Source: an uncultured Gammaproteobacteria bacterium (GTDB lineage Bacteria > Patescibacteriota > Patescibacteriia > Magasanikbacterales > GWA2-37-8). Taken from it: DNA of 64,000 nt. This document shows, piece by piece, positions 12,089 through 42,828 of this stretch. The first letter of the stretch is position 1; each line of letters begins with the position of its first letter. Location of the stretch: positions 304,523-368,522 of the forward strand of contig CAYHBZ010000001.1 in the NCBI GenBank assembly GCA_964355175.1, in the 5' to 3' direction. The translations under genes were made by a program, and so were the position numbers. Below the pieces are notes generated by a model, which saw nothing but the letters and a program-made list of their open reading frames with translations, had not been told where the DNA came from and made no database searches.

Positions 12089-12097
12089 TGTGGATAA
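12089..12097 (-). promoter_or_regulatory. Perfect TTATCCACA (DnaA-box consensus) 20 nt upstream of the 16S promoter -35
   Basis: The plus strand reads tgtggataa, an exact 9-mer match. It directly abuts the trmD stop codon. Confidence 0.3.
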
Positions 12098-12754
12098 TTA
12101 GCGACTTTCGCCTTTACGCCAATCCCTTATTTTTTTATGGTCTCCAGAAAGAAGAATTTTGGGCACTTTTAGGCCCATAAAATTTTCCGGACGGGTATAT
12201 TGAGGGTATTCAACAATTCCATCTTCAAAGGTTTCTTCTTTGAGCGAATCACTGTTGCCGAGAACTCCCGGCAATAAACGCGATACAGCTTCGATAATAA
12301 CCAGGGCTGGCAATTCGCCGCCCGCTAACACATAGTCCCCGACAGACACCCGATCATCCACAAATTTATAGACACGCTCGTCAAAGCCTTCATAGCGACC
12401 ACTGATGATGACCAGATTATCTAGTTTAGAAAATTGTTTGGCCATTTTTTGATCAAACTTTTTTCCATCCGGATCCATGATAATTATTTTGGTTTTTGGT
12501 TGTTTTATTTTTTTGCCATTTTTTACCAAATCCATATTTTCTAGAGTGAGATAAATTGGCTCTACTTGTAGTACCATACCAGCTCCCCCACCGTATGGTT
12601 TATCGTCGACATGGCGTTGCTTATCCAAAGTAAAATCACGAAAATTATGAGTAATAATTTCTATTAGTTCCTTATTTTGCGCACGCCCCAAAATACTATC
12701 TTGGCAATAGTGATGAATCAGATCTGGAAAAATTGTGAGAATGCTAAATTTCAT
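12098..12754 (-). CDS. trmD: tRNA (guanine37-N1)-methyltransferase
   Basis: MKFSILTIFPDL, DDKPYGGGAGMV, SGRYEGFDERV and GDYVLAGGELPALVIIEAVSRLLPGVLGN are TrmD signatures. Confidence 0.9.
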   Translation of the reverse strand: MKFSILTIFPDLIHHYCQDSILGRAQNKELIEIITHNFRDFTLDKQRHVDDKPYGGGAGMVLQVEPIYLTLENMDLVKNGKKIKQPKTKIIIMDPDGKKFDQKMAKQFSKLDNLVIISGRYEGFDERVYKFVDDRVSVGDYVLAGGELPALVIIEAVSRLLPGVLGNSDSLKEETFEDGIVEYPQYTRPENFMGLKVPKILLSGDHKKIRDWRKGESR

Positions 12755-12867
12755 AATTTCTAAGGTTGAGACAAAATAGAAAATTAATTTTCTATTTTGC
12801 GAGACCTGAATAAATTAGATGGCCTCGCAGAGGACTCATAGTCCCTTGATTATACTATCAAAAAGCT

Positions 12868-12901
12868 AAAAAAACAAGAATACCGACTTTCGTCGGTATT
12901 C
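12868..12901 (-). terminator. Intrinsic terminator after the 1472-aa gene
   Basis: gaataccgac (12878-12887) and gtcggtattc (12892-12901) form a 10-bp stem with loop tttc. A T-run follows on the minus strand. Confidence 0.55.
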
Positions 12902-12919
12902 TGTAAGTTATTTTAACTT

Positions 12920-15900
12920 TTATTTTACATTGAAATCAAAGCTATTCTCGGCAAGCACCACATTCTTGCTATCGAGTACTTTCACTTTTGCAGTGTAGGT
13001 ACCGGTAGCTAATTTCTTGCTCAAAGAGCTGGTAGCATTGAATTTAACGGCTTGACCTTTGGATAGCGTGCGGGTTCCGTCAACCTCACCCACTACTTTG
13101 CCATTGGCATCTACTACCTGGCGAACGATTTTTACTTTTACTGGTTTACCAGTTTCGTTCTTATAGGAGTAGGTGTACTTCACAGCACTGCCTGGTTTAT
13201 AATCAACTTTTAATCCGGTGATCACCACTTTGGAATCTGGATTATTGGTAGAAATTGAAGGTGGAGGCAGAGGTTTCTTTACAGTTACATCAAAGCTGTT
13301 TTCACCCAAAAGCTTATTTTTGGAATCCATTACTTTAACTTTGATAGTGTAGTTGCCGTCAGCCAATTTACTGCTTAGTAAATTGCTAGCGCTTGACTTA
13401 AAGGTCTTGCCTTTAGCAATCGAAGCGCTGCTATTTACCTGAGCCACTACTTTACCATTAGCATCGAGCACCTGGCGTGCTACTTTAATCTTTAAAGTAG
13501 CACTATTTTCATTCTTAAAGGAATAAGTGTAAGCAACTGAGCTGTTTGGAACATATTGCAATTTCTTTACTGGTAATATCACCAACTTGGAACCAGGATT
13601 GGAAAGAGTAAAGATTGTTACATTGGAAGAATTAGAGGATCCTACATTGGAAGATTCAGGTAAAGTGGTTAGAGCAGAAGCTTCTTTTAAACCTACAGTT
13701 ACTTGATAAATGGTGCTTAAAGCTCCAGTAGCTGAACGGAATCTGATGTTTAGTGTCTTTTGACCATCACCGGCAGACAACGCAAATACCTTGGTAGTGG
13801 CGTATAGTTCCCACACAGCGCCTACGAAAGCAGAGTCTTCGGAGATTATCATATCTTTAGCGTTGAAAGCTGAAAGATTGATAGTGATATTTCTAGAAGA
13901 TACTGAGGAAGGATTACCTGGTAAGCTGACGGAAACTTTCGAAGGAGCCGAACCAGCACCACTGGTAACACCACCACCGCCGCCGCTTGATCCACTACTA
14001 ACACTTACAGTGTTGCCAGTAAAGGTAGCGGAGTCAGATCCGGTATCAGTAGAATCTTTACTATCGGTAAAGGCAAGAGAAACAGTACCGTTTCCAGAGA
14101 CCTGGAACAATCCATCATTATTTGTTTTAGCACTAGCTACAGAGAAAATATTACCACTGCTTTGGAAGATACCGGTACTAGCACCAGTTTCAGTCAAAGT
14201 GATTGTTTCAGAGTCACTATAAGTATCGGAAGTGACAGTTACAGTCATAGTATCAGCAGAAGTAGTCAGGTTGGCGTCAGTATCTACTACTTTCAAATAC
14301 ACAGAACTAGCGGCAGTAGCATAGGTACTAGCGGCAGTACCAGCACCGTCTACGAAGTCAACCGAGGCAAGTGGGTGAACAATAGCGCCAGTTTCAGTGA
14401 CTGTACCAGTATTAGTAAAGGTGCCAGGAGCGTATAGAGTGTAGCTAGAACCGATAGTCAAAGAACCGGCATTGGTAATACTATCAGTAGAAGTGGTGTT
14501 ACCGGCCAAAGTATAGGTGCCGGCACCAAGAACTAAGCCCCAATATCTTTCAGCTGCTGGGGTTACAGAACCAGTACCAGTGTATCTTACAGTAGAGCTG
14601 GCCGAAGTAAATGTACCACTGTTAACAAAAGCGGTAGTACTGCTAGGGAAAGTCAAGGTAAAACTAGAACCATTTAAAGTCTTGCCGGAATTAATTGTAA
14701 GCACATTACTGACAGTGGTCGAACCAGACAAGGTGCCAGATGTGCCGTTGTTAACAACTAAATTCCAGTAAGTGGTGGAGGCGATGGTGGAGGTGGCACC
14801 GGAGAAGACTACAGTGGAGGTGCTGGCAGTGAAGGTACCGTTGCTTAATAATGGAGTGCCTGTACCGGTGAAGGTTAGGGTCTTGCCATTGGCGTCTAAA
14901 GTTTTTCCAGAGTTAATGGTTAAGACATTGCTGACGGTGGTGTAGCCACCTAATGTACCGGCAGTGCCGTTATCTACAGTCAAATTGTAATAGGTGGTGG
15001 AGGCAATAGTAGCAGTAGCACCGGAATAGACGACAATGGAGGTGCTGGCAGTGAAGGTACCGTTATTAACTAATGGGATACCGGTACCACTTAGAGTAAG
15101 AGTATAACTGCTTGCATCTAAAACCTTGCTGGCATTAACAGTTAGGACATTGCTGACTGTAGTGGAACCAGTTAAGAGGGCAGTCCCGGCGTTGTTAATA
15201 ACCAAATTAAAGTAAGTTGTGGAGGCAACGTCGGGTCCTGTAACACTATTTGAATAGGTAAAGGTAGAACTACCGGCGTTAAATGTGCCGTTATTAATAA
15301 ACGTAGAAGCGTTGTTACCTGTAACTTCTAAAGTACTTGTACCAGCATTAAAAACCGCGCCGCTGTTAATTCTGATACCAGTATTCCCTCCTGCTTGCAA
15401 TCCACCGTATACGGTTGAGCTAGCTGAATCAACCGTCACAGTATAAAAGGTACCGGAGGCCATATTTACACCATTACCAGTATATCTAATAAGTAAATTA
15501 CTAAAATTTGAAGCACCCGTATTATTAACAAACGGAGTTCCTGTGGCAGCTAAAGTAAGATTTTCAATACCTGGCTCCAAGATCGAAGGGGTACCCACAG
15601 TAAATAAATTATTTACTGTAGTACTACCTGTAATAGTGTTGGAAGTGGCACCATTCAAAGTCAAGTTGTAGTAGGTGGTAGAAGCAACGTTGGCGGTGGC
15701 ACCGGAGAAGACTACGGTAGAGGTACTGGCGGTGAAGGTACCGTTGCGTAAAAACGGAGTGCTGGTACCGGTCAATGCCAGAGTATAGCCGTTGGCATCC
15801 AAAGATTTAGTGGAGCTAACAGTAAGTACATTGGTGGTGGTCACATTACCGGCTAAAGTACCGGCAGTGCTGATTAATAGGTTGTAGTAGGAAGCAGAGG

Positions 15901-17338
15901 TGATTGGTTGGGTACTACCACCACCGTAGACCACAGTCGAAGTGCTGGCAGTAAAGGTACCACTTTGTGTAAATGGTGTGATACCTAACAAACTGATCGT
16001 GTATCCATTGGCGTCCAATACAGCGCCACTGCTAATTACAAGATTGTTCATTTCTACTATACCCGCCAATACGGCGGCAGTTGAATCGATTTGTAGACCG
16101 TAGTAGGTAAGGTTAGCGGCAACATTAGTAGCGCCGACACCGGAATATCTGACTACACCATTACTGGTAAGAGTACCAGTTTTAACAAGCGGAGTACCAG
16201 TGCCAGATAAATTCAAAGTGAAGCTAGAAGTATCGAGTGTCTTGCTGGCATTAATAGTCAATACACTACTGACAGTAGTAGAGCCAGACAGTGTACCTGA
16301 GGTGCCATTATCAACAGTCAAATTATAATAGGTGGTGGAGGCGATGGTGGCAGTAGCACCGGAGTATTTAACGGTAGAACCGCTTGGAACAAAAGTACCA
16401 TTTCGCACAAATGGAGTGCTCGTACCAGGCAAATTTATTGTACTTCCTGAATGGCCTGTTAAACTACCTGAGCTACCTATAGTAAGAATATTAGTAGTAG
16501 TAACATTAGAAGTTCCTGCTGTAGACAAAGTTACAGATCCATTTATAGTTAAATTATAAGGCACAAATCTACCTGAAGTTATACCACTATCACCAATTAA
16601 CTTTCCAGTACCAGTCATTGTTACAGTACCTGAAGTTTGAATCAAAGTACCTGGTGATAATATACTTCCTCCAACATTTAGATTAAAGGTAGATAAATCA
16701 AAAACTCTCAGTGAATTAACAGTAAGATCGTTGGTAGTTGTAACACTACTACCAAGCGTGGTATCATCGGCAATAGTAAGGTTGTAAAAATTTATTGATC
16801 CAGGGCCGCTAATAGTTTTAGTAAGACCGGACATCGTGAGAGTACCAACTGTTTGGCTAAGAGTAGTAGTGACATTAACATTACCAGACACATTAATTGT
16901 TCCAGTGGCGTTAAATGCAGTTCCGCCTAATCTCAGATCAACAACAGCCAAAGTACCGCCTACCTGAAAAGTACCGGCGTCTTGTGCAAAACTACCAGTG
17001 CCAGTAAGGGTTACGCCTGAATTAATATTAATAGTTCCGGTATATGTAGAATCCATTGATATGCCGGCAGTAGTTGTACTGACATCAAAAACAGCATTGG
17101 TAGTAGTTCTAGCTCCATTAAAAAACAAATCTTTACCGGTCAGAGTAGTACACGCTGCACCAACTCCACCGATAGTATCTTCCCAATTAGTAAGAGTTGA
17201 AGCCAGCTGAGAACTGCTCGCAGTCCAAGTACAAAAAGCCGCACTTGCCTGCTGACCAAAAAACATTGAGGAGAGCAGAAGTGCTGACCCCACTAAGAGT
17301 AGTTTAGACCTACTCAGAAATGACACATTCGTATTCAT
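12920..17338 (-). CDS. Giant secreted repeat protein (1472 aa), probably a beta-helix-type adhesin, with two C-terminal Ig-like modules
   Basis: The protein has a signal-like N-terminus (LLLVGSALLLSSMFFGQQASA). About 70-75-aa T/S/G/N-rich units recur many times (…TTVSNVLTINSGKTLDANGKTLTFTGTGTPL..NGTFTASTSTVV(Y/F)SGAT.TIASTTYYNLTV.NGT…). Two C-terminal modules of about 110 aa are also repeated (…YTYS(F/Y)KNE…KVKV(M/L)DSKN…ENSFD). Confidence 0.85.
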   Translation of the reverse strand: MNTNVSFLSRSKLLLVGSALLLSSMFFGQQASAAFCTWTASSSQLASTLTNWEDTIGGVGAACTTLTGKDLFFNGARTTTNAVFDVSTTTAGISMDSTYTGTININSGVTLTGTGSFAQDAGTFQVGGTLAVVDLRLGGTAFNATGTINVSGNVNVTTTLSQTVGTLTMSGLTKTISGPGSINFYNLTIADDTTLGSSVTTTNDLTVNSLRVFDLSTFNLNVGGSILSPGTLIQTSGTVTMTGTGKLIGDSGITSGRFVPYNLTINGSVTLSTAGTSNVTTTNILTIGSSGSLTGHSGSTINLPGTSTPFVRNGTFVPSGSTVKYSGATATIASTTYYNLTVDNGTSGTLSGSTTVSSVLTINASKTLDTSSFTLNLSGTGTPLVKTGTLTSNGVVRYSGVGATNVAANLTYYGLQIDSTAAVLAGIVEMNNLVISSGAVLDANGYTISLLGITPFTQSGTFTASTSTVVYGGGSTQPITSASYYNLLISTAGTLAGNVTTTNVLTVSSTKSLDANGYTLALTGTSTPFLRNGTFTASTSTVVFSGATANVASTTYYNLTLNGATSNTITGSTTVNNLFTVGTPSILEPGIENLTLAATGTPFVNNTGASNFSNLLIRYTGNGVNMASGTFYTVTVDSASSTVYGGLQAGGNTGIRINSGAVFNAGTSTLEVTGNNASTFINNGTFNAGSSTFTYSNSVTGPDVASTTYFNLVINNAGTALLTGSTTVSNVLTVNASKVLDASSYTLTLSGTGIPLVNNGTFTASTSIVVYSGATATIASTTYYNLTVDNGTAGTLGGYTTVSNVLTINSGKTLDANGKTLTFTGTGTPLLSNGTFTASTSTVVFSGATSTIASTTYWNLVVNNGTSGTLSGSTTVSNVLTINSGKTLNGSSFTLTFPSSTTAFVNSGTFTSASSTVRYTGTGSVTPAAERYWGLVLGAGTYTLAGNTTSTDSITNAGSLTIGSSYTLYAPGTFTNTGTVTETGAIVHPLASVDFVDGAGTAASTYATAASSVYLKVVDTDANLTTSADTMTVTVTSDTYSDSETITLTETGASTGIFQSSGNIFSVASAKTNNDGLFQVSGNGTVSLAFTDSKDSTDTGSDSATFTGNTVSVSSGSSGGGGGVTSGAGSAPSKVSVSLPGNPSSVSSRNITINLSAFNAKDMIISEDSAFVGAVWELYATTKVFALSAGDGQKTLNIRFRSATGALSTIYQVTVGLKEASALTTLPESSNVGSSNSSNVTIFTLSNPGSKLVILPVKKLQYVPNSSVAYTYSFKNENSATLKIKVARQVLDANGKVVAQVNSSASIAKGKTFKSSASNLLSSKLADGNYTIKVKVMDSKNKLLGENSFDVTVKKPLPPPSISTNNPDSKVVITGLKVDYKPGSAVKYTYSYKNETGKPVKVKIVRQVVDANGKVVGEVDGTRTLSKGQAVKFNATSSLSKKLATGTYTAKVKVLDSKNVVLAENSFDFNVK
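14450..16600 (-). repeat. Degenerate in-frame tandem repeats (unit about 220 nt) within the 1472-aa gene
   Basis: Recurring nucleotide blocks are visible, for example ggtggtggaggc(g/a)at(g/a)gt...gcaccggag(t/a)a...gtgaaggtaccgtt near 14770, 14990, 15670 and 16330. Confidence 0.6.
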
Positions 17339-17426
17339 AGAAGAAGATGAATTAATTACTTTTTATTTAATAAAAAATTAATAAAATTATTTTGTAGGAA
17401 TTTACTTAAAAATAGACTACAAATGC

Positions 17427-17455
17427 ATTATACACTTTTTTTAAATTCCTTGCAA
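17427..17455 (-). promoter_or_regulatory. Sigma-70-type promoter for the 1472-aa gene
   Basis: The minus strand reads TTGCAA (17455-17450), a 17-nt spacer, then TATAAT (17432-17427). Confidence 0.5.
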
Positions 17456-17474
17456 AGGATAAAAGTATTTTACA

Positions 17475-17483
17475 TGTGGATAA
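17475..17483 (-). promoter_or_regulatory. Perfect TTATCCACA box 19 nt upstream of the -35 of the 1472-aa gene promoter
   Basis: The plus strand reads tgtggataa, and the minus-strand context is CACTTATCCACA. Confidence 0.3.
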
Positions 17484-17520
17484 GTGCTCACGGAACGATT
17501 CTTCGTTTCACTTGGAGTGA

Positions 17521-17556
17521 TAAAAAACAAAAAACCGCCTCGACAAATCGAAACGG
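17521..17556 (-). terminator. Intrinsic terminator after the KH-domain gene
   Basis: On the minus strand, ccgtttcga / tcgaggcgg form a 9-bp stem that includes G:U pairs. It is followed by ttttttgtttttt. Confidence 0.55.
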
Positions 17557-17570
17557 TTTTTAAAATTTTC

Positions 17571-17954
17571 TTAGATTCCCAAGTCATCCACGGCGCTGGT
17601 GTCAATCATCGGTGCCGCACTTGCACTCTGCATAGGGCGAGGACCGCGACCGCCTACCGGCTCATTGATCTTTAGGTTCACGCGAGCATTGTGCTTGGCG
17701 CCTACGATCTTGAGCAAGGTGCGGATGGAGCGAGCGGTTTGGCCGCTGCGTCCAATGACATAGCCCATGTCGGCTGGATCGACATCCAAAGTAATGAGCA
17801 CACCGCGTTCATCAATGATACGGTCGGTCTTTACTTTGTCTGGGTTGTTCACAATCGCCTTTACAAGCGATTCAACAAACATCTGATCTGCTTCCATAGT
17901 ATTGTCGTTATATATTTCATTTCTACAGTCTGTCGACATGTGGAGGTATTCCAC
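17571..17954 (-). CDS. KH-domain RNA-binding protein (KhpA/YlqC-like) with a C-terminal extension
   Basis: FVESLVKAIVNNPDKVKTDRIIDERGVLITLDVDPADMGYVIGRSGQTARSIRTLLKIVG contains the KH GxxG core (GRSG). Its position next to rpsP is typical. The true start is probably an internal Met (MEADQMFVESL). Confidence 0.75.
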   Translation of the reverse strand: MEYLHMSTDCRNEIYNDNTMEADQMFVESLVKAIVNNPDKVKTDRIIDERGVLITLDVDPADMGYVIGRSGQTARSIRTLLKIVGAKHNARVNLKINEPVGGRGPRPMQSASAAPMIDTSAVDDLGI

Positions 17955-18005
17955 CAGCTCTGCTTTTCTATAATATCAAAATCCTGAAATTCGGTCAATC
18001 TTTTT

Positions 18006-18060
18006 GTCATCCCGAGCGATAGCGAGGGATCTTTAGATTCCTCATTATATTCGGAATGAC
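18006..18060 (-). repeat. Palindromic element copy A (intergenic, between rpsP and the KH gene)
   Basis: The sequence is gtcatcccgagcgatagcgagggatctttagattcctcattatattcggaatgac. The termini and the inner gagggatct/agattcctc segments are mutually complementary. It has the same architecture as copies B and C. Confidence 0.6.
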
Positions 18061-18066
18061 AGCGAA

Positions 18067-18381
18067 TTACGCAATTTTTTTCTTCTCGGCCAATTTAGTA
18101 GCGCGACGCTTACTGATAAATACTGATTTTTTTGTTTTGCCTTTTACCAATCCAGCTTTCAAAAACAAATTGTGCAAAGTTGGAGAGGCCTGAGCGCCTT
18201 TACCAATCCAGTAAGTAATTCTTTCGGCATTTGGCAAAAGTTGATTTTCTTTGGCGTGTGGATTGTAAGTACCAACCTGTTCCAAATAAGTACCCCAAGT
18301 ATCCTTGGTCTTTTCAGAAACGATAATGCGATATGTGGCAAATTTATTTTTACCAATACGCTGTAAACGAATTGCTAACAT
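18067..18381 (-). CDS. rpsP: 30S ribosomal protein S16
   Basis: MLAIRLQRIGKNKFATYRIIVSE...GTYNPH matches the S16 N-terminal signature. Confidence 0.9.
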   Translation of the reverse strand: MLAIRLQRIGKNKFATYRIIVSEKTKDTWGTYLEQVGTYNPHAKENQLLPNAERITYWIGKGAQASPTLHNLFLKAGLVKGKTKKSVFISKRRATKLAEKKKIA

Positions 18382-18464
18382 AGATTAATTTAATTTTTAT
18401 AAGAGTTTCTCTCATGACTTGTGAAGATCACGGAGAAGTTAAGAGCTGGCCTACTATACTATGT

Positions 18465-33635: not shown

Positions 33636-33638
33636 ATT

Positions 33639-34325: not shown

Positions 34326-34331
34326 ATAAAA

Positions 34332-34784
34332 TTAATCTTCCGGTTTATAATAACCGCCGGTATTTACCGCCAAGGCCAAATCGCGCAGACGGTTATAGGA
34401 TAAATTTGGCACCTCCGCGATCTTTTCTACTAGCACCACCGTTTCCATTTTGCGCAATTGTTCCAATTCTTCTTTGGTGTCCATTTTATACCAGATGCGT
34501 CGACTCGGTCGGCGCAGTGTCTGAAACAAATTCAATAAAAAATAATGAAAAGACTGTCCGTTGATTTTTACAAAAGCCAAGATCAGAGAAAAGCTACCTA
34601 GAGTGGCTAGAGAGAAAATGAACAAAGCCATGTCCGCCAATTTAAAAGTAATAAATAAAATCAGTCCGGCAATTAGCAAGATCAAAAACTGACGCGTAGT
34701 CACCGGTCCAAAAATTTTATCCTCAACGTCAATAAATTGTGGCACTACAAACTGTTCCATATTAAATAGCCAACTCTTTTTCAA
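34332..34784 (-). CDS. PrgI-family (VirB3-like) small membrane protein
   Basis: VPQFIDVEDKIFGPVTTRQFLILLIAGLILFITF followed by a second TM segment is the PrgI-family pattern. The gene lies directly upstream of VirB4, as in Gram-positive T4SS loci. The likely start is the internal MEQF. Confidence 0.6.
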   Translation of the reverse strand: MKKSWLFNMEQFVVPQFIDVEDKIFGPVTTRQFLILLIAGLILFITFKLADMALFIFSLATLGSFSLILAFVKINGQSFHYFLLNLFQTLRRPSRRIWYKMDTKEELEQLRKMETVVLVEKIAEVPNLSYNRLRDLALAVNTGGYYKPED

Positions 34785-35901: not shown

Positions 35902-35903
35902 AT

Positions 35904-36914
35904 TTATAAGCTATGTTGATGTAAACCAATCACCAGGCGTAATAATTCTCTGAGCCAATTCTGCACGGCTTGAGTATTTGGTTCATTTTGATAAAAATCG
36001 GCAATAAATTTTTCTTGAGCAAAAGTTTTAATATCCGCTTCATAAACCAAAGCAAATACTTGGTGAACAGCTTCCTGAACTTTCACGCCAGAAACAGCTT
36101 CGGAAGTGGTCGGTATAAATTCTCCATTATAATCCAAAGTACGAATCAAACCATCAAATTCTTTATCCAATTCTTGGGCATTCAAGCCATTATAAGCCAT
36201 CAACAAACGATCGCGCACTGGCACACCTACCACCACCGATTGATAAAAATAATTTTGTAATAAAAATTTATGATCAGATATTGATAAATCCCTAAAATAT
36301 GCCCAGGCCATTTGTATTATTAGACTACTGACCAAAACTTCCAGCCAATAAAACTGTGCACCTTCGTAATCGTCTTCCTTGGTAGCCGCAGGCAAAGAAT
36401 TTAATAATTTTCCGACATAACTAGTTGAAGCCGCGCCGGTAATTATTTGCCTCAAGGTATAGACAAATAAAATATCATCATAATAAGGCAACTTGCCGGC
36501 CAAAATCAAACTAATTTCTTCATCGTTATACGGCTTGATTTCTTTCAGATCAGGCGACAAATTATCAGTAGCGGCTGATACCAAAAAAATCTGTGAAGAT
36601 AAGCTATTTAACAACTCTTGATCGCTGGGGTTGGCTATAAAACTTTTGATAAGATCGACGCTGATTAAACTTATTAAAACCTTATCAATTTTTACAAGCA
36701 GTCCATTACTGGTATTTTGCAATTGTTTGGATAGATTTTCGGCCACACCATAGATACCCTTGGAATTTGGAGTAAACAGCTCTAGACGATCCTCGGCGGC
36801 GACCAATTCATTCAAAGCCAAGACAACCTCATTTTGTGGCTGAGAATAAAAGGTATATAATTTTTGCGCTCCAAGCTTTAAGGCCATATTTAAGAAAATA
36901 TTTTTTCGTTCCAA
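35904..36914 (-). CDS. Hypothetical soluble protein (336 aa) in the T4SS-like operon
   Basis: The ORF has no TM segment and a helical-looking composition. It overlaps the upstream gene by 25 nt. Confidence 0.6.
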   Translation of the reverse strand: MERKNIFLNMALKLGAQKLYTFYSQPQNEVVLALNELVAAEDRLELFTPNSKGIYGVAENLSKQLQNTSNGLLVKIDKVLISLISVDLIKSFIANPSDQELLNSLSSQIFLVSAATDNLSPDLKEIKPYNDEEISLILAGKLPYYDDILFVYTLRQIITGAASTSYVGKLLNSLPAATKEDDYEGAQFYWLEVLVSSLIIQMAWAYFRDLSISDHKFLLQNYFYQSVVVGVPVRDRLLMAYNGLNAQELDKEFDGLIRTLDYNGEFIPTTSEAVSGVKVQEAVHQVFALVYEADIKTFAQEKFIADFYQNEPNTQAVQNWLRELLRLVIGLHQHSL

Positions 36915-37963
36915 TGAAATTGATTATCGGATTCGCTGAAATATACCAACTCATCAGTTATTAATTTTTGCTCCTGCAAAATCGAGCTGAACTGGACTAA
37001 TAAATTTAATTGATCTTCATCAATCAAACTAACTTTACTTTTAACTACCGACAATAATTTTTTAATAAAATCAGGGGCTTGAGTTTTTAGCCAATCGGCG
37101 ACTGCGGTGGCACTGCCCAACCATTGGGTGAGATCCGGTAATGCTTGCAAAAAATTCAAATAGGTTGCGGATTTATCAATTTCCGCTTGCGGTTCCACCT
37201 TTTCTTCGTGCAAACATTTATCTTCTGTGATATTTTTCCAAATTTTTCCACTTACCAAAGAGTCGTAAATTACCAATATATATTCCAAAGCGGCTTTCAA
37301 CGGCGCATCTAAGCTGGTAACCTCGATAAATTGTCTAGCAAATTCTTCTACTTTTGTTTCTTCATTATCGGTTTTGAATTCATCCAGCATTTTCACCCAT
37401 TGAGAGATAGATTTATTATTTTTATCATCGAGATCGCCGACAATATTTTTATTTTCAGAGATATCGTCGGCAAATTTGCCGGCATCTTCTTTGTAAATAT
37501 TTATAAAACAATATTGGGCGAAGTAATTTCTAATACTTTCGATAACTTGTATCTTGCCAGACAACACAGCCAACAACAAAAATCTGGAGCCAAGTAAAAA
37601 ATCTTGACGCAAACTTTTCTGTTGAGCAAAATTCAAAAAACCAAGCCAGGCATAATACTTTTGATAAAACCAATTTTGTTCATCATTTAAAAAATCAAAA
37701 AATATTTTTTTATTAGACCAATCTTCCAAAGACCCGAGAATTTCACTATCTGCACCATCGTAGTAATCAGATTGATAATGGTACAAAGAAAACAGCAAAT
37801 TCAGCTGCACCTGTTCACTGGCCAAGACTGATTGATCTACATCAGCCCAATCTCTGGCGGTATAATCCGAGCTATTGTTTTCTAATTTACGCAACAAAAC
37901 CTGGCGCTCCTGCTCTGAGCGCTCTGGAAAAAAATTGGAAATTAATTCTTCGTAAGAAAACAT
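36890..37963 (-). CDS. Hypothetical soluble protein (357 aa) in the T4SS-like operon
   Basis: The ORF has no TM segment and is acidic. It is the gene immediately downstream of the VirB6-like gene. Confidence 0.6.
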   Translation of the reverse strand: MFSYEELISNFFPERSEQERQVLLRKLENNSSDYTARDWADVDQSVLASEQVQLNLLFSLYHYQSDYYDGADSEILGSLEDWSNKKIFFDFLNDEQNWFYQKYYAWLGFLNFAQQKSLRQDFLLGSRFLLLAVLSGKIQVIESIRNYFAQYCFINIYKEDAGKFADDISENKNIVGDLDDKNNKSISQWVKMLDEFKTDNEETKVEEFARQFIEVTSLDAPLKAALEYILVIYDSLVSGKIWKNITEDKCLHEEKVEPQAEIDKSATYLNFLQALPDLTQWLGSATAVADWLKTQAPDFIKKLLSVVKSKVSLIDEDQLNLLVQFSSILQEQKLITDELVYFSESDNQFHWNEKIFS

Positions 37964-37992
37964 ACTACCTGTTTATTTTATTGATCAAAATT

Positions 37993-40900
37993 TTATGATG
38001 TTGGATCTTTCTTATTTTTTTCAGCAGTTCCTTTTTCTACCGGTTTAAATGCCGCCATCTGCCTCTTTGGTGCCTTGCCGTCATCAGTAAAAGCCCCTTC
38101 ATTGTATAAAGAAATCAACTGACTGATATTTGTAATATGCTCCTGCTTACCTTTTGCCATCACAGTAATATTCATTTTACCGGTCTGATAAGCTTCCTGA
38201 GCGTCTACCTGAGATTTCTTGGCCAAAGTCATCAACACATCTTGAGGGTTGGTAAACAACTGATCCTTTACCAATTCATTAAACCAATCATTGGTAGTTT
38301 GCTGGTGTAAGGCGTCTTCTTTATTCTTTATATGTCCAAGACGTTTACCTGATTTTACCTCAGAGTATCTCCCGGCCAGCCCAATACCGTCATCGGAAAA
38401 TTTCTGTGCCCAATTATGACGCCCTGAATCAGACCCATTGGCTTTTTTACCATTAATCAAGAGACCATCCTTTTCTGTAAAATAATCTTCAACGTTTTCC
38501 GTGGAAGCCAAACCGGCCATATGGTTTAGATAACGTGGAGTAGTTTTTTGATGGTTTAAATGACTGGTAATATCACCTCTGGATATACGATACGCTTTGC
38601 CTCTGGTTCTAGTAGCATAGCCTGTACCCTCATCTAAGTTAATATAGGAATGCGATTGTTTACCGGCACGATTGCCAACATCCAATTTGTTGACCTCACC
38701 CAACACACCATCTTGGGCGATTCCAGCACCCACCAATACATGCCTTTGTTTACCTCTGCTAGATTTGATATTATCGGCATGGCCACCATTTTCAGTATGA
38801 GAACCACCGGCCATCTCATCGCGTAAATTGGTAACAAATTGAATTTGAGATTGATTATCATCCTGCGTCTTGATATATTGAGCCATTTTAGACTTATCGG
38901 TAATTGTTTTTAATGGAGCACTGTCAGCACCAAACTTATCACCGAATGTTTTTAATTCACTACCGGTAAAATCTTGATTTTCCAATTTATCATAAAATTG
39001 AGCCACACTCATACCCATTTCTTGCACAGCATAATCCATCACTTTGGCTACTTGTTTATGCATACCGGCAAATTCTAAATCACCACCAGTACTCAAAACC
39101 GCAAACAAATCATTAATTTTTTCAACGTTAAACTCCTTGCCTTGCCAACCAAGCCCACCATCTGCAACATTTTTTTGCATCTCCGCTTTTAAATCAGGTG
39201 CCATCGCGCGCCAAATACCATCATCAAGCCAACTTTTAGAAACACCATGATCAAGCATAGCGGCCATAATATTTTTATCGGCAGAAGTTGGCCCAGTACC
39301 TTTACCCTCTTTCGCATCTTTTCTCTTTTGAATCATCGCCAAAAGATTGGTACCAAAGTTACTGGTATAGGTGCTATAATCCATGTCCGTAAATCTTTTA
39401 CGATAATATTCTCTACCTTCAGATAAAGCCTCGTTTGGCACAGTGATACCTCGAGGTTTGTAAACTTCTTCTTGCTCTACTTCACTCAATAAATAATTAT
39501 GATCTTTGGAATAGGCATTTTTTTCCTCAGTTTCCTTGGCATGAGCCGCTGAATTCTCCCAAGAAATACTAGAGGTTCTTTTGGCTCTAGCTTTCTGTAC
39601 AGCCTCTTTTCTAGCGTCCTTAAGTGTCTGATCATTGTTATCTATAGATGAAATTTCTTCCTGTAGGGTTTCAATACTATCTTCTTTAGCTTTTATCGTA
39701 CTCCCATTTTTTACATCAAAATCGTTAAATGCTTTTTTGGCAGCTTCTAATTCTTCCGGATTGGAAGGATCCGCCGCTCCCAAAGCTGCTTGTAGCCTAT
39801 TTTTTTCCGAAGACAATTTACCAAGCTCTTCCTGTTCCGCTTTTAGCTGAGTGCGTTTGAGGGCCGAACCTTCAGAATGCATATTGTTGGCTGATTCCAA
39901 AATTTCCTGAGCCTCAAGCTCAGCTTTTATTGCCTCTTCGTCAAAGCCATGTTTTGCTTTAGTTAAATTATTGCTGAGTTGCGTTTTGGCAGTATCAGCA
40001 CCAAGTTCGGCTCCAGCTTGCTTTCTGAGAAGGCCCTTACCGCCATGTTTTATTATTTTACCATTTTCATCTTTCTTATCTTCGGTGTCAGAAAAAGCAA
40101 CGGCGGCTTTCTTTTCCAATTCTTCAATTTCAGCATGTTCTGTGCCTTCTTCAGCTGCTATAGCTGCTTGCTTGGCGAGTAATGCTCCGGCATGTTCCAT
40201 GAAATGCAACTTAGCACCACCTTCAGCTAAATGAGCGGCTTTCTCAGACAATTCCGCTTTAAACTTCGCCTCCACCTTGGCGGCGACCACTTGTTTTCCT
40301 TTGCCACTTTTACGATATTCTTCCAATGTTCCCGACATCAGTTCCTTGGTTCGTTCTTTGTTTCTATCAGCTCTTTCATTATGACCAACAACTTGTTCAG
40401 CTATACTACCTTTTTCATATTGAAATTTACCATCTTTAAAACGAGAACTCTCCAAAGTGGCACGGCGACCATACTCTTGGAATTCAGAAGTTTTAGCGGC
40501 AGAGCGTTCTTTTTCCGCGGCCAACATACCTTGGGCAACACGATCAAAGCCATCTGGCATATCACGCAAAAATGCACCTTTAGGAATGGCCGTTATCCTT
40601 TTATCTATCAATTCTTCTTGTAGTTTGGATTGATCTTCTGTTTTCTTTAAAGTTTTACGGCTGCCAATTAATTTGGCGCGAGCTTCATAGCGATTTTTTT
40701 GAAACCAACTCCTTGAATCCTTATCTTCATATTCATATTCACCTTCGATATCTTTACCATTTTCATCTTTCTTATTAACAAATTTCATTCTGGCGTTTCC
40801 TTTATCATCTAATTTTACATTACCGTGCTCATCTTTCTCCTCCTCCATTTTTAATCTAGGACCTTCCGAACGATAAATTTTCCAGCTTTCCAACTGGCGT

Positions 40901-42189
40901 TTGGCAAAATTTTGAACTCTTTCTACCGTATCTCCCAAAGGTGTCGCATTCCAAACCGCACTCTTGATACCACTGCCAGCGGCACTCACCGCTTTACTAC
41001 CCATATCTTTGGTCTTATTAAATGCCCACATACCGGCCGCTACACCAGAGCCAACCGTAGCCACTTTCTTGGCAAAATCCGTGGCCTTGCTCATCGCACT
41101 GCCACCTACTGTACCAAGCGACTGCGCGGTCTTGGCACCAACAAGTAAAATACCAATTGCGATAGCGAAGTTGGCAATTTTATCAAAACTCATCACCGCG
41201 CTAATACCCACGGTCGCGGCCGCGCCGTTAACTTTCGCACCCGGCATATTTTCTTGCGGAGCGGAATTATTCTCTTTGCTACTAATTTCAGAATTTATCT
41301 GACCACTGCCCACTACCGCAAATGACAGCCATAGGAAAAATACTACGACCGGACCCACGATGACATGATTACCAAACTCACTCCACCATTGCGAAGCATA
41401 TTTTTCGGTTTGCGGAATCACGCTGAGCACAAAAGCAAATGGCGACAACACAATCAAAATCCACAGCACCAACATGCGAGCCAAAAGCATAAATACAAAT
41501 ACGGCCATAATGCCCAAAGTGAGAGCGGCAAAACCAAGTGCGCCCACCGCGGCACCAAAAATTTCTGAATTACTGGTGAGACCTTGCGGACCAGTTTCGG
41601 GATTGAGAGAATAAATTTTATCCAAACTAAAAGCGTTGATCAAATTACCACCGGCCGTGGCGGCGATACCGTTTACAAAAGTAATCATTACCACCTGAGA
41701 AATATCAATAATCACGCCACAAATTATTCGACTGAAATTTACCAAAATAGCGGCAAAGAAAAACTTCACCAACATTTTTTTCCATTCGTATTGTTCTAGA
41801 CCCAAGATAGTACCAAAAGCCACCAGCAACAAAACCACCACAAAAAACATATTGGTAATATCACGCACCATCACCCAGCCTACCTGCACAGCGGTGGAAT
41901 TCAGATAGCCATTATAGCCGGCAATCTCAATAATAAACGACAAACAAAAAATCGCCAGACGAATCATCAAAGCCGCAGCGGCCAAGAGCATGGTCGTGAT
42001 TGCTTTGACAAAAGTATTAGGCTCAAAACCACCGGCGGCGGCCGGCTCGGCATACACCACATTTGTACCCATCACCGCATACACACCCAGACCCAAAACC
42101 AGCAAAAATACAAAAAGGGCCACTTGGTTTTTGTGGGCAGATAAAAAGTTATAGAGTTTAATTGTTCTCGCTTTAATACTTGAGAACAT
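37993..42189 (-). CDS. VirB6/TrbL-like polytopic membrane protein with a charged C-terminal extension of about 1000 aa
   Basis: The N-terminal 350 aa or so contain at least 6 TM segments (…MVRDITNMFFVVVLLLVAFGTILG…ILVNFSRIICGVIIDISQVVMITF…), as in VirB6/TrbL/PrgH-type channel proteins. The remainder is K/E/A-rich and looks like coiled coil. It is the first gene of the operon. Confidence 0.6.
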   Translation of the reverse strand: MFSSIKARTIKLYNFLSAHKNQVALFVFLLVLGLGVYAVMGTNVVYAEPAAAGGFEPNTFVKAITTMLLAAAALMIRLAIFCLSFIIEIAGYNGYLNSTAVQVGWVMVRDITNMFFVVVLLLVAFGTILGLEQYEWKKMLVKFFFAAILVNFSRIICGVIIDISQVVMITFVNGIAATAGGNLINAFSLDKIYSLNPETGPQGLTSNSEIFGAAVGALGFAALTLGIMAVFVFMLLARMLVLWILIVLSPFAFVLSVIPQTEKYASQWWSEFGNHVIVGPVVVFFLWLSFAVVGSGQINSEISSKENNSAPQENMPGAKVNGAAATVGISAVMSFDKIANFAIAIGILLVGAKTAQSLGTVGGSAMSKATDFAKKVATVGSGVAAGMWAFNKTKDMGSKAVSAAGSGIKSAVWNATPLGDTVERVQNFAKRQLESWKIYRSEGPRLKMEEEKDEHGNVKLDDKGNARMKFVNKKDENGKDIEGEYEYEDKDSRSWFQKNRYEARAKLIGSRKTLKKTEDQSKLQEELIDKRITAIPKGAFLRDMPDGFDRVAQGMLAAEKERSAAKTSEFQEYGRRATLESSRFKDGKFQYEKGSIAEQVVGHNERADRNKERTKELMSGTLEEYRKSGKGKQVVAAKVEAKFKAELSEKAAHLAEGGAKLHFMEHAGALLAKQAAIAAEEGTEHAEIEELEKKAAVAFSDTEDKKDENGKIIKHGGKGLLRKQAGAELGADTAKTQLSNNLTKAKHGFDEEAIKAELEAQEILESANNMHSEGSALKRTQLKAEQEELGKLSSEKNRLQAALGAADPSNPEELEAAKKAFNDFDVKNGSTIKAKEDSIETLQEEISSIDNNDQTLKDARKEAVQKARAKRTSSISWENSAAHAKETEEKNAYSKDHNYLLSEVEQEEVYKPRGITVPNEALSEGREYYRKRFTDMDYSTYTSNFGTNLLAMIQKRKDAKEGKGTGPTSADKNIMAAMLDHGVSKSWLDDGIWRAMAPDLKAEMQKNVADGGLGWQGKEFNVEKINDLFAVLSTGGDLEFAGMHKQVAKVMDYAVQEMGMSVAQFYDKLENQDFTGSELKTFGDKFGADSAPLKTITDKSKMAQYIKTQDDNQSQIQFVTNLRDEMAGGSHTENGGHADNIKSSRGKQRHVLVGAGIAQDGVLGEVNKLDVGNRAGKQSHSYINLDEGTGYATRTRGKAYRISRGDITSHLNHQKTTPRYLNHMAGLASTENVEDYFTEKDGLLINGKKANGSDSGRHNWAQKFSDDGIGLAGRYSEVKSGKRLGHIKNKEDALHQQTTNDWFNELVKDQLFTNPQDVLMTLAKKSQVDAQEAYQTGKMNITVMAKGKQEHITNISQLISLYNEGAFTDDGKAPKRQMAAFKPVEKGTAEKNKKDPTS

Positions 42190-42210
42190 GAAAATAAATT
42201 TACTGTCATT

Positions 42211-42239
42211 ATTATATCATAATTCAGCTAAGCGAACAA
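42211..42239 (-). promoter_or_regulatory. Putative extended -10 promoter for the T4SS-like operon
   Basis: The minus strand reads TTGTTC (42239-42234), a 17-nt spacer whose last bases give TGA, then TATAAT (42216-42211). Confidence 0.4.
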
Positions 42240-42264
42240 ACAAAACCCTCATCTCTCCAAACAC

Positions 42265-42273
42265 TTATCCACA
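42265..42273 (+). promoter_or_regulatory. Perfect TTATCCACA box in the divergent promoter region, 21 nt upstream of TTGACA (42295-42300)
   Basis: This is an exact 9-mer in the context CACTTATCCACA, the same extended context as the box at 17475. Confidence 0.3.
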
Positions 42274-42390
42274 CATTTATTTTTAATAAAAAAATTGACA
42301 GTGCTAGACCGATTTGTTAAGGTGAATTAAATGCTCTTTACACTGTGTGTTGAGCTTTTCGCTCACACCAACCACCCCCAAGAGGACGCC

Positions 42391-42714
42391 ATGAAGCTGC
42401 TCGTCAGTCTCACTTGCTTGGCGCTCTCCTGCGCCACCGAACCTCCCCCGACGATCTCGACGACGTCGAGTCTCATCACCACCGACCCGTGCCAGGGCAA
42501 ACAGTGGCTGGAAGAACATATCCTGGACTGCGGTCCAGGCAAATTCTACTGCTACCCCAAAGTGACTCAGCCGAAAAATGCCAACTGCCGGCTGATGTGC
42601 CAGACGCACTGGTACCCTATCAGCTGGGTCGAAGGCCAGGAGGGCGACAGCTACATCCGCATTCGCGACGACTTCACCGGAGATATCCTCCTGTGCCTCG
42701 TGCGAGCAAAATGA
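42391..42714 (+). CDS. Small Cys-containing secreted protein encoded in the high-GC island
   Basis: MKLLVSLTCLALSCA is signal-like. AGAGGA lies 6 nt upstream of the ATG. Codon usage is GC3-rich, unlike the rest of the window. I recognise no family. Confidence 0.5.
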   Translation: MKLLVSLTCLALSCATEPPPTISTTSSLITTDPCQGKQWLEEHILDCGPGKFYCYPKVTQPKNANCRLMCQTHWYPISWVEGQEGDSYIRIRDDFTGDILLCLVRAK

Positions 42715-42819
42715 GGTGACTCAACGGGGTTTCCGCCAAGGGGCTGACGCTAGCCGTCGGCTCCTGGCTCCCCAACTCATTTAGATAACGGCTTTAGGGC
42801 TGTTTTTTTATTTTTGGAG

Positions 42820-42828
42820 TTATCCACA
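42820..42828 (+). promoter_or_regulatory. Perfect TTATCCACA box between the two GC-island genes
   Basis: This is an exact 9-mer inside the AT-rich spacer of the island. Confidence 0.25.

What the first reader, a model, noticed from the sequence alone, without database searches (positions are those of the whole stretch)
12089..42828. Perfect TTATCCACA (DnaA-box) motifs placed 19-21 nt upstream of -35 hexamers
I found four exact copies of the 9-mer. They are at 12089-12097 (minus), 17475-17483 (minus), 42265-42273 (plus) and 42820-42828 (plus).

Three of them lie 20, 19 and 21 nt upstream of a good -35 hexamer. These belong to the 16S promoter, the promoter of the 1472-aa surface protein, and the promoter facing the first GC-island gene. 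The last of these also lies in the divergent region of the T4SS-like operon. Two copies share the longer context CACTTATCCACA.

The fixed position near -60 looks like an activator or UP-type site rather than a replication origin. The boxes are kilobases apart, and neither dnaA nor dnaN is in the window. This may link rRNA, surface-protein and island-gene expression to DnaA or to another factor with the same specificity.
Basis: seen in the sequence. Interest (0 to 1): 0.5.

Follow-up and report, generated by a model that had tools for sequence, protein, structure and literature searches.

The report
Conserved DnaA-box-like promoter element in Patescibacteria
A 9-base sequence identical to the binding site of the replication initiator DnaA sits at fixed, helix-phased positions upstream of the 16S rRNA, giant surface-protein and secretion-system promoters of an uncultured ultra-small bacterium and its relatives. 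It is therefore a real, conserved gene-control site, although the protein that reads it is not yet known.

Summary
There are four exact TTATCCACA copies against 0.67 expected, and all lie in the 9% of the window that is non-genic. Three lie 19-21 nt upstream of a -35 hexamer. The window comes from a Candidatus Magasanikbacteria (Patescibacteria/CPR) genome.

Comparative data show a functional cis-element:
- The box upstream of the 16S P1 promoter is kept in 29 of 30 related loci. It is as invariant as the -35 and -10 hexamers, while its flanks drift.
- The boxes at the 1472-aa secreted-protein promoter and in the region upstream of the T4SS-like operon are also conserved.
- A fifth, variant site (ATATCCACA, 52413-52421) precedes the 2649-aa protein operon.

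The distance from box to promoter falls in steps of about 10.5 bp, with box centres near -40, -50, -60 and -71. That is the geometry of class I/II activator or UP-subsite positions. The boxes are not an origin: there is no cluster, no GC-skew switch and no dnaA.

Genome-wide abundance is only about twice expectation, so the signal is positional.

The reader of the site is unproven. DnaA acting as a transcription factor is the leading candidate. However, the sites are mostly single boxes, unlike DnaA targets bound in vivo in E. coli, and no dnaA/oriC locus of this lineage could be retrieved.

The parts
12089..12097 (-). Box 1, TTATCCACA. It directly abuts the trmD stop codon and lies 20 nt upstream of the -35 of the 16S P1 promoter.
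   Evidence: An exact or 1-mismatch box is kept at the orthologous place in 29 of 30 Magasanikbacteria loci. In alignment A1 its columns are invariant, like those of the -35 and -10.
12040..12068 (-). 16S P1 promoter, TTGACA-17-(TGc)TATTAT
   Evidence: It is conserved in the alignment.
10186..11741 (-). 16S rRNA gene, the target of P1. It is not linked to a 23S gene in this window.
17475..17483 (-). Box 2, TTATCCACA. It lies downstream of the khpA terminator and 19 nt upstream of the -35 TTGCAA.
   Evidence: A syntenic box upstream of the large protein gene is present in L002, L003 and L009 (spacer 18-19) and in L005 and L006 (spacer 31-32).
17427..17456 (-). Promoter of the 1472-aa secreted protein gene (12920-17338)
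   Evidence: The protein has a signal peptide.
42265..42273 (+). Box 3, TTATCCACA, in the divergent region between the T4SS-like operon and the lipoprotein gene. It is 21 nt from the + strand -35. In inverted orientation it is 25 nt from the - strand -35.
   Evidence: In 37 related loci, a box lies within 250 nt upstream of the first operon gene in 10 cases (exact) and 26 cases (up to 1 mismatch). Permuted motifs give 0.2 and 3.1.
42295..42323 (+). Promoter TTGACA-17-TAAGGT, facing the GC-rich small lipoprotein-like ORF (probable start 42391, end 42714)
42211..42239 (-). Promoter of the 1398-aa / T4SS-like operon: TTGTTC-17-(TGa)TATAAT, an extended -10 type
   Evidence: The extended -10 TGnTATAAT is conserved in relatives.
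42820..42828 (+). Box 4, TTATCCACA. It follows the terminator of the 127-aa ORF and lies 77 nt upstream of a consensus promoter. Its assignment is uncertain.
   Evidence: A second box-plus-promoter unit at the equivalent place in L113 has a spacer of 10.
42906..42934 (+). Perfect consensus promoter TTGACA-17-TATAAT. It is followed by a highly structured leader and the 157-aa GC-rich ORF.
52413..52421 (-). Fifth, variant box ATATCCACA at the 3' end of ksgA. It lies 23 nt upstream of the extended -10 TGgTATAAT (52384-52389) of the 220-aa + 2649-aa protein operon, so the box overlaps the -35 position.
   Evidence: At the same promoter in L165-L169 the box is ATATCCACA or TTATCCACT, at 22-24 or 32 nt.

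Best explanation
TTATCCACA is a discrete, asymmetric 9-bp cis-regulatory element of a subset of sigma-70-type promoters in Magasanikbacteria and other Patescibacteria.

Proposed mechanism. A sequence-specific protein binds the element as a monomer on one face of the helix. Its centre lies near -40, -50, -60 or -71, and from there it contacts RNA polymerase, like a class II or class I activator. This raises transcription of the 16S rRNA P1 promoter and of the promoters for giant secreted proteins, small lipoproteins and the T4SS-like operon.

Most likely reader. DnaA, through its domain IV, is the leading candidate, because the element equals the near-universal DnaA-box consensus. If so, expression of ribosomes and of the cell-surface and host-interaction apparatus would be tied to the level of the replication initiator.

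Shown: the element exists, is conserved at orthologous promoters, is positionally quantised, and is not an origin.

Inferred: protein binding, the sign of regulation (activation), and DnaA as the factor. I give about 0.9 to 'functional promoter-associated protein-binding site' and about 0.45-0.5 to DnaA specifically.
For: Non-random occurrence and placement in the window:
- Four copies against 0.67 expected.
- All four are non-genic, P about 7e-5.

Lineage: Magasanikbacteria.

Conservation at orthologous promoters:
- At 16S P1, an exact direct box is present in 20 of 30 related loci, a 1-mismatch box in 5, and an inverted box in 3-4.
- In alignment A1 the invariant columns are the box, the -35 and the -10, while the flanks vary.
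- Box 2 is kept upstream of the syntenic large-protein gene.
- The region upstream of the T4SS-like operon carries a box in 26 of 37 loci, against 3.1 +/- 2.5 for permuted motifs.
- The promoter of the giant-protein operon carries a box in 6 of 6 genomes examined.

Null controls:
- Same-composition permutations give 6.9 copies against 52 for the box in 736 kb.
- Only 1.5% of permuted hits are followed by a promoter within 5-35 nt, against 60% for the box.
- Non-CPR loci carry 4 boxes in 399 kb, none at a promoter.
- 47 of 52 boxes lie outside ORFs although 79% of the sequence is ORF.

Spacing:
- Spacers to the -35 cluster at 7-11, 18-22 and 30-32 nt, with gaps between the clusters.
- The Rayleigh test gives p about 2e-5 at a period of 10.5-11 bp for 22 dereplicated sites.
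- A further class lies 22-24 nt from extended -10 promoters that lack a good -35. This continues the same series one helical turn closer.

Form of the element: a single 9-mer with uninformative flanks and no dyad partner. This fits a monomeric reader such as DnaA domain IV.

Base tolerance: in promoter-proximal variants, positions 2, 4, 6 and 8 are least tolerant. T4 and C6 are also the fixed positions of the relaxed E. coli DnaA-box consensus (from my own knowledge).

Precedent: DnaA acting as a transcription factor at sites upstream of promoters is established in E. coli and other bacteria (PMC11317965, PMC3193534, PMC13438810).
Against: - No protein-binding or expression data exist for this lineage.
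- I could not retrieve any Patescibacteria dnaA/oriC locus to confirm that its DnaA uses TTATCCACA.
- E. coli DnaA binds in vivo almost only to double boxes 2-3 bp apart, and only 13 of 32 consensus single boxes are bound (PMC11317965). Here most sites are single, and there is no general excess of a second box at +/-11-12 bp. A few exceptions exist.
- The commonest functional variants are TTATCCCCA, ATATCCACA and TTATCCACT. Position 5, the free 'N' of the classical TTWTNCACA consensus, is rarely varied. The specificity profile is therefore not a clean match.
- Phasing is not universal. Direct TTATCCCCA sites at the T4SS-operon promoter lie in a register shifted by about 5 bp (28-30, 38-40 and 47-49 nt from the -10). 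Including them weakens the Rayleigh p to 0.003-0.008.
- Box 4 is out of register, at 77 nt.
- The regulon (rRNA, tRNA, surface proteins, pilin-like genes, toxin-antitoxin) does not resemble known DnaA regulons, which centre on nucleotide and replication genes.
Confidence: 0.5

Rival explanations
1. The element is the operator of a different sequence-specific regulator, specific to or enriched in Patescibacteria. Its recognition sequence happens to coincide with the DnaA-box consensus. The regulator would be a monomeric activator of highly expressed and surface genes.
For: - Sites are single boxes without the 2-3 bp double-box architecture needed for DnaA binding in vivo in E. coli (PMC11317965).
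- The tolerated variants (positions 1, 7 and 9; TTATCCCCA is frequent) differ from the classical TTWTNCACA degeneracy.
- The regulon differs from known DnaA regulons.
- The motif is promoter-associated in CPR loci but not in Firmicutes or Nitrospina control loci, whose DnaA presumably has the same specificity.
- One box precedes a small TrpR-family gene in L032. DnaA domain IV has a TrpR-like fold (from my own knowledge).
Against: - No candidate gene was found. The TrpR-like gene occurs in only one of about 170 loci.
- A 9-of-9 coincidence with the DnaA consensus is improbable a priori.
- If this lineage's DnaA has canonical specificity, it would compete for these perfect sites in any case.
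Confidence: 0.3
2. The box is an RNA-polymerase-intrinsic upstream (UP-type) element, read directly by the alpha C-terminal domain or another polymerase part of Patescibacteria. No separate factor is involved.
For: - Box centres (about -40, -50, -60 and -71) coincide with the proximal and distal UP subsites, and with the further positions one helical turn apart that alpha-CTD is known to occupy in E. coli (from my own knowledge).
- The box marks promoters expected to be very strong, such as those of rRNA, tRNA and surface proteins.
Against: - Known UP elements are A/T tracts read in the minor groove. This 9-mer has four G/C pairs whose identity is strictly conserved.
- Most strong consensus promoters in the window lack the box.
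- The box also works in inverted orientation at shifted spacings, which is more typical of a separate asymmetric protein.
Confidence: 0.08
3. The boxes serve replication control and not transcription. They would be scattered high-affinity DnaA titration sites, or a protein roadblock that stops read-through (for example from trmD into the rRNA promoter).
For: - Titration of DnaA by chromosomal boxes is documented in E. coli (PMC12371093).
- Box 1 abuts the trmD stop codon with no intrinsic terminator in between.
- Boxes 2 and 4 follow terminators.
Against: - Titration or roadblock roles do not predict a quantised distance to the -35 or -10.
- They also do not predict retention of the box at particular promoters while its orientation and spacing change.
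- Overall abundance is only about twice expectation, which gives poor titration capacity.
Confidence: 0.07
4. The boxes are a chance occurrence, or part of a replication origin.
For: One of 100 shuffles also reaches four copies. Genome-wide density in 1.08 Mb of related DNA is within 1.4 sd of permuted motifs.
Against: - The box is conserved at orthologous promoters across relatives whose TrmD is down to about 57% identical to the window's.
- Placement is non-genic.
- There is no box cluster, no skew switch and no dnaA.
Confidence: 0.02

Closest known systems
DnaA boxes acting as transcription-factor sites (DnaA regulons of E. coli, B. subtilis, Caulobacter, Pseudomonas)
   Same: The 9-mer is identical (TTATCCACA). 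It is located upstream of or overlapping promoters, outside oriC. It is asymmetric and suited to a monomeric domain-IV-type reader. T4 and C6 are critical.
   Different: - The sites here are mostly single boxes, whereas sites bound in vivo in E. coli are double boxes 2-3 bp apart (PMC11317965).
- The targets are rRNA, tRNA, surface-protein and T4SS genes, not nucleotide, replication or repair genes.
- Helix-phased class I/II-like positions have not, to my knowledge, been described for DnaA.
- The variant spectrum differs (TTATCCCCA, TTATCCACT).
- Binding by DnaA is untested.
Class I / class II activator sites (CRP; monomeric MarA/SoxS/Rob marboxes)
   Same: The binding site lies at helically phased positions upstream of the -35, or overlaps a weak -35 at promoters with an extended -10. 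For an asymmetric site, orientation is coupled to distance: direct copies sit at about 10/20/31 nt and inverted copies at about 15-18/24-26 nt. The marbox behaves in a similar way.
   Different: There is no sequence similarity. This element is 9 bp, compared with about 20-22 bp. No AraC- or CRP-family regulator has been identified here. The resemblance is one of architecture only.
UP element and Fis sites of E. coli rrn P1 promoters
   Same: It is an upstream element of the rRNA P1 promoter at -40 to -75, and it is shared with other highly expressed genes.
   Different: It is not an A/T tract, and it is not the degenerate 15-bp Fis motif. Fis is, to my knowledge, restricted to gamma-proteobacteria.
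oriC / datA / DARS DnaA-box clusters
   Same: The 9-mer is the same.
   Different: There is no clustering, no AT-rich unwinding element next to a box array, no skew switch, and no dnaA/dnaN neighbourhood.

Membership tests
DnaA box / DnaA-regulated promoter site | 9-bp match to the consensus TTATCCACA | tested here: met
   There are four exact copies in the window and 70 distinct exact copies in related Patescibacteria loci.
DnaA box / DnaA-regulated promoter site | Bound by DnaA (footprint, EMSA, ChIP) | not testable with these tools
   No binding data exist for this uncultured lineage.
DnaA box / DnaA-regulated promoter site | The lineage's own DnaA uses this sequence, shown by boxes clustered at oriC next to dnaA | not tested
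   No dnaA was found in about 2.4 Mb of fetched loci. Attempts to reach it by synteny failed.
DnaA box / DnaA-regulated promoter site | Double-box architecture: a second box 2-3 bp away in the same orientation, as required for in vivo binding in E. coli (PMC11317965) | tested here: not met
   Over 67 dereplicated sites, the mean match at +/-11-12 bp is not above background. Only a few sites have a partner, for example L013, L016, L029/30 and L009/26.
DnaA box / DnaA-regulated promoter site | Degeneracy profile of functional variants resembles TTWTNCACA | tested here: inconclusive
   In promoter-proximal variants, positions 1, 7 and 9 are most tolerant and positions 2, 4, 6 and 8 least. T4 and C6 agree with the relaxed E. 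coli consensus. Tolerance of A7 to C, and the rarity of position-5 changes, do not.
Replication origin (oriC) | Cluster of several boxes within a few hundred bp, plus an AT-rich unwinding element | tested here: not met
   The copies are 0.5 to 25 kb apart.
Replication origin (oriC) | GC-skew sign change and/or a dnaA-dnaN neighbourhood | tested here: not met
   The cumulative skew falls monotonically. No DnaA or DnaN is present.
Class I/II activator-binding site | Located upstream of or overlapping the -35, with distance constrained to helical repeats | tested here: met
   Spacers cluster at 7-11, 18-22 and 30-32 nt, with Rayleigh p about 2e-5. A class at 22-24 nt from the -10 overlaps the -35. 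Caveat: the T4SS-promoter series is shifted by about 5 bp.
Class I/II activator-binding site | Conserved at orthologous promoters while the flanks diverge | tested here: met
Class I/II activator-binding site | Factor-dependent stimulation of transcription | not testable with these tools
   This needs in vitro transcription or reporter assays.
UP element (alpha-CTD site) | A/T-tract sequence at -38 to -59 (consensus AAAWWTWTTTTnnAAAA) | tested here: not met
   The box has four conserved G/C positions. Its positions do, however, coincide with UP subsites.

The most novel reading that the evidence does not exclude
In Patescibacteria (CPR), DnaA or a so far unknown monomeric factor with the same specificity would be the principal upstream activator of the rRNA P1 promoter. 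The same factor would activate the promoters of the giant surface proteins, lipoproteins and the T4SS-like machinery. It would work from single boxes placed at alpha-CTD-like, helix-phased positions. These ultra-small episymbionts would then couple ribosome synthesis and their host-interaction surface directly to the state of the replication initiator. This regulatory logic has not been described for any bacterium.
Probability: 0.35. Interest if true: 0.8.

Novelty: new variant of a known kind. Interest (0 to 1): 0.62.

Why it matters
Almost nothing is known about transcriptional regulation in Patescibacteria. They make up a large share of bacterial diversity, have genomes of about 1 Mb, and have few recognisable regulators. 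Full-text searches found no paper that links DnaA boxes or promoter motifs to this group.

This work provides three things:
- A conserved, easily scanned 9-mer that marks the rRNA P1 promoter and the promoters of the surface and T4SS genes. A T4SS has been reported essential for epibiotic growth in Patescibacteria (PMC12102498).
- A concrete regulon.
- A testable hypothesis: DnaA, or a factor that mimics it, acts as a global activator.

The hypothesis can be tested by EMSA or DAP-seq with recombinant protein, and in the genetically tractable Saccharibacteria. The element also helps promoter annotation in CPR metagenome-assembled genomes (MAGs).

Tried and rejected
1. Origin of replication. Rejected: no box cluster, no skew switch and no dnaA.

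2. Fetching a dnaA/oriC locus of the lineage. All attempts failed.
- Extending the window to the right by exact protein look-up returned only short contigs.
- PMC12102498 reports dnaA near virB4 in many Patescibacteria classes. However, the VirB4 and RF2 homologue searches returned only close Magasanikbacteria. Their loci showed NusA-YidC-GroEL or gyrB but no dnaA.
- The gyrB divergent intergenic region is not an origin.

3. Double-box test. Negative.

4. TrpR-family gene downstream of a box in L032, as a candidate factor. It is present in only one locus.

5. One-mismatch copies in the window at 2560 and 28974 are inside coding sequence. TTATCCACT at 63552-63560 lies in the end of a gene, next to a pseudo-promoter that overlaps the start codon. 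None of these is counted as a site.

6. The idea that box 3 serves both divergent promoters. The inverted copies in relatives have loose distances to the T4SS promoter (36-87 nt), but canonical spacings to the divergent promoter. Box 3 is therefore assigned mainly to the + strand (lipoprotein) promoter.

7. Extended motif CACTTATCCACA. It is not general.

8. Rfam. No known RNA family lies around boxes 3 and 4.

Full report
**1. Observation**

TTATCCACA occurs exactly four times in the window: at 12089-12097(-), 17475-17483(-), 42265-42273(+) and 42820-42828(+). Dinucleotide-preserving shuffles give 0.67 copies on average, and 1 of 100 shuffles reaches four.

With one mismatch there are 32 copies against 20.2 expected. 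Most of these lie in coding sequence and look like chance.

All four exact copies lie in the at most 9.3% of the window that is not covered by genes. The chance of that is about 7e-5.

Reading the sequence confirms three of the four reported spacings:
- Box 1 is 20 nt upstream of TTGACA-17-TATTAT.
- Box 2 is 19 nt upstream of TTGCAA-17-TATAAT.
- Box 3 is 21 nt upstream of TTGACA-17-TAAGGT.

Box 4 is different. It follows a terminator and lies 77 nt upstream of a perfect consensus promoter at 42906-42934.

**2. Context**

The window comes from a Candidatus Magasanikbacteria genome (Patescibacteria/CPR). TrmD, VirB4-like and RF2 proteins have relatives 85-99% identical in MAGs (metagenome-assembled genomes) of that name.

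The genes around the boxes on the minus strand run in this order:
- SMC, rpsP and khpA, then a terminator
- box 2 and its promoter, then a 1472-aa protein with a signal peptide
- trmD, then box 1 abutting the trmD stop codon
- the P1 promoter, a leader of about 300 nt, and the 16S rRNA gene

The 16S gene is not followed by a 23S gene.

Box 3 lies in the 140-nt divergent region between two units:
- a 1398-aa gene that heads a T4SS-like operon (PrgI, TraC-like, VirB4/TraG P-loop)
- a GC-rich small ORF with a lipoprotein-type signal

The GC skew is negative throughout and never changes sign. There is no dnaA or dnaN. These boxes are therefore not an origin.

**3. Conservation at orthologous promoters**

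*16S P1.* I fetched 80 loci around trmD from species-representative genomes.
- The trmD-16S arrangement is conserved in Magasanikbacteria.
- Of the 30 loci L002-L033 that show the region, 20 have an exact box in the same orientation. In these it lies about 330-575 nt upstream of the mature 16S 5' end.
- Five have a one-mismatch box (CTATCCACA, ATATCCACA or TTATCCCCA).
- Three or four have an exact box in inverted orientation.
- One has none.
- In an alignment of 18 P1 regions, the only invariant blocks are the box (TATCC-CA), the -35 (CTTGACA) and the -10. The flanks and the spacer vary.

*Box 2.* It is likewise kept upstream of the syntenic large-protein gene in L002, L003, L009, L005 and L006.

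*Box 3.* I fetched 80 metagenomic loci around VirB4.
- 37 of them reach the start of the operon.
- Of these, 10 have an exact box and 26 a box with at most one mismatch in the 250 nt upstream.
- Same-composition permuted motifs give 0.2 and 3.1 +/- 2.5.
- Many of these boxes are in direct orientation, 8-10 nt from a divergent TTGACA promoter. In several loci that promoter leads to small GC-rich lipoprotein genes, as in the window.

That promoter serves the 220-aa + 2649-aa protein operon. The same promoter in five other genomes carries ATATCCACA or TTATCCACT at 22-24 or 32 nt.

**4. Controls**

Set 1 (736 kb of Patescibacteria DNA around trmD):
- The box occurs 52 times, against 6.9 +/- 5.8 for 300 permutations of its letters.
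- 60% of boxes are followed by a strong promoter within 5-35 nt, against 1.5% of permuted hits.
- In 399 kb of non-CPR control loci (Lactobacillales, Nitrospina and others) there are 4 boxes, none at a promoter.
- 47 of 52 boxes lie outside crude ORFs, although 79% of the sequence is ORF.

Set 1 is enriched by construction, because the orthologous 16S site is counted many times.

In the unbiased set 2 (1.08 Mb around VirB4) there are only 20 exact boxes, against 9.9 +/- 7.4 for permutations. The element is therefore not abundant genome-wide. It is concentrated at particular promoters.

**5. Geometry**

For 22 dereplicated direct sites followed by a -35/-10 promoter, the spacers to the -35 are:
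- 7-11 nt (10 sites)
- 14 nt (1 site)
- 18-22 nt (9 sites)
- 30-31 nt (2 sites)

The gaps between clusters are almost empty. The Rayleigh test gives p about 2e-5 at a period of 10.5-11 bp.

The 16S P1 promoter itself appears in different lineages with spacers of 10-11, 20-22 or 30-32 nt. This argues for a face-of-helix constraint and against simple inheritance of one arrangement.

The sites 22-24 nt from extended -10 promoters that lack a good -35 continue the series one turn closer. They occur at the giant-protein operon. They also occur at L041 and L054, upstream of a membrane-protein gene and the 23S gene. Box centres are thus near -40, -50, -60 and -71.

Inverted boxes occur at 15-18 nt (four 16S promoters) and at 24-26 nt.

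Two caveats apply:
- Direct TTATCCCCA boxes at the T4SS-operon promoter form a series at 28-30, 38-40 and 47-49 nt from the -10. This is shifted by about half a turn. Adding them lowers the significance to p about 0.003-0.008.
- Box 4 is out of register.

**6. Nature of the element**

- The flanks carry almost no information. There is no dyad or repeat partner, and the shared CAC prefix is not general.
- A second box 2-3 bp away is present in only a few sites and is not a general feature.
- Among promoter-proximal one-mismatch variants, positions 1, 7 and 9 are tolerant. The variants seen are ATATCCACA, CTATCCACA, TTATCCCCA and TTATCCACT.
- Positions 2, 4, 6 and 8 are the least tolerant.

The downstream genes are a mixed set: 16S, a tRNA, a membrane-protein gene followed by the 23S gene, giant secreted proteins, small lipoproteins, a pilin-like protein, the T4SS-like operon, a RelB antitoxin, a nucleotidyltransferase and a TrpR-family protein.

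**7. Interpretation**

The data establish a conserved promoter-associated protein-binding site. Its positions are those of class I and class II activators, and they equal the UP-subsite positions of E. coli. I infer activation from two facts: the site lies upstream of or overlapping the -35, and it occurs at promoters that lack a good -35.

*The case for DnaA.* The sequence equals the near-universal DnaA-box consensus. DnaA domain IV reads such a 9-mer as a monomer. DnaA is an established transcription factor (PMC11317965, PMC3193534, PMC13438810). DnaA is therefore the leading candidate.

*The case against DnaA.*
- E. coli DnaA occupies almost only double boxes in vivo (PMC11317965).
- The variant spectrum is not classical.
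- The regulon is unlike known DnaA regulons.
- I could not confirm the DnaA-box sequence of this lineage, because no dnaA/oriC locus could be retrieved.

*Rivals.*
- A dedicated factor with the same specificity (confidence about 0.3).
- Direct recognition by the polymerase itself (about 0.08).
- A titration or roadblock role (about 0.07).

**8. Novelty**

Full-text searches found no paper that connects DnaA boxes or promoter motifs with Patescibacteria. They also found none that places a DnaA box at an rRNA promoter.

A DnaA-box-type site used singly, at helix-phased activator positions, on rRNA and surface/T4SS promoters across a CPR lineage is a new variant of a known kind of element.

I rate interest at 0.62. 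The cis-element and its regulon are solid, and they open CPR gene regulation to experiment. The trans factor and the direction of regulation remain inferred.

Noticed in passing
window 42906-43110 (+): A perfect consensus promoter (TTGACA-17-TGcTATAAT) is followed by an RNA that folds into two strong hairpins (MFE -66.6 kcal/mol, z = -6.5). The second hairpin is a 13-bp perfect inverted repeat (AGATTGTGGTGGA / TCCACCACAATCT). It encloses an 11-codon mini-ORF (MGRDCGGMFVC). No Rfam family matches. It could be an attenuator-type leader of the 157-aa GC-rich ORF, or a small RNA.
   Followed up: partly
window 42300-43700; L113, L116, L087, L139, L094: A GC-rich island (0.49 against 0.40) encodes small Cys-containing lipoprotein-like proteins. 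Relatives also carry small GC-rich lipoprotein genes divergent from the T4SS-like operon. The arrangement is therefore conserved and not a recent insertion.
   Followed up: partly
window 42858-42888: Two adjacent short palindromes, CATACTAAAATAGTATG and GGGTAATAAATTACCC, lie between box 4 and the consensus promoter. They could be operators, or an insertion that displaced box 4 from the promoter.
   Followed up: no
window 7196-11741 (-): The 16S rRNA gene is not followed by a 23S gene. Downstream come a PfkB-kinase/cupin gene, an NAD-epimerase gene, and then tRNA-Val and tRNA-Ile. The rRNA genes are therefore unlinked in this genome.
   Followed up: no
L041 7388-8570; L044 4686-6020; L054 12641-13982: In other Patescibacteria the 16S-tRNA-23S spacer holds a protein gene of about 228 aa with mechanosensitive-channel TM helices. 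In L041, L044 and L054 it is preceded by a TTATCCACA box. In L044 and L054 a second, inverted partial copy follows (ATCCACAGgtcatCTGTGGAT).
   Followed up: partly
window 37993-42189, 43756-51705, 55996-62847 (-): Three giant ORFs (1398, 2649 and 2283 aa) occupy about 30% of the window. The 1398-aa ORF, the only one of the three scanned, has no Pfam domain. The last two are each preceded by a gene of about 220 aa.
   Followed up: no
set-2 loci, e.g. L097, L103, L108, L113; window 42211-42219: The promoter of the T4SS-like operon is of the extended -10 type (TGnTATAAT) with a weak -35 (TTGTTC/TTGTTG). This holds throughout Magasanikbacteria.
   Followed up: partly
L044 4184-4262; L055 11217-14420: There is a group II intron domain hit in the 16S-23S spacer of L044. 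In L055 the 16S gene is split by insertions.
   Followed up: no
window 52361-52381: The first ATG of the 220-aa ORF (52381) lies 2 nt after the -10 hexamer. The true start is probably the in-frame ATG at 52363, which gives a leader of about 14 nt without an obvious Shine-Dalgarno sequence.
   Followed up: no
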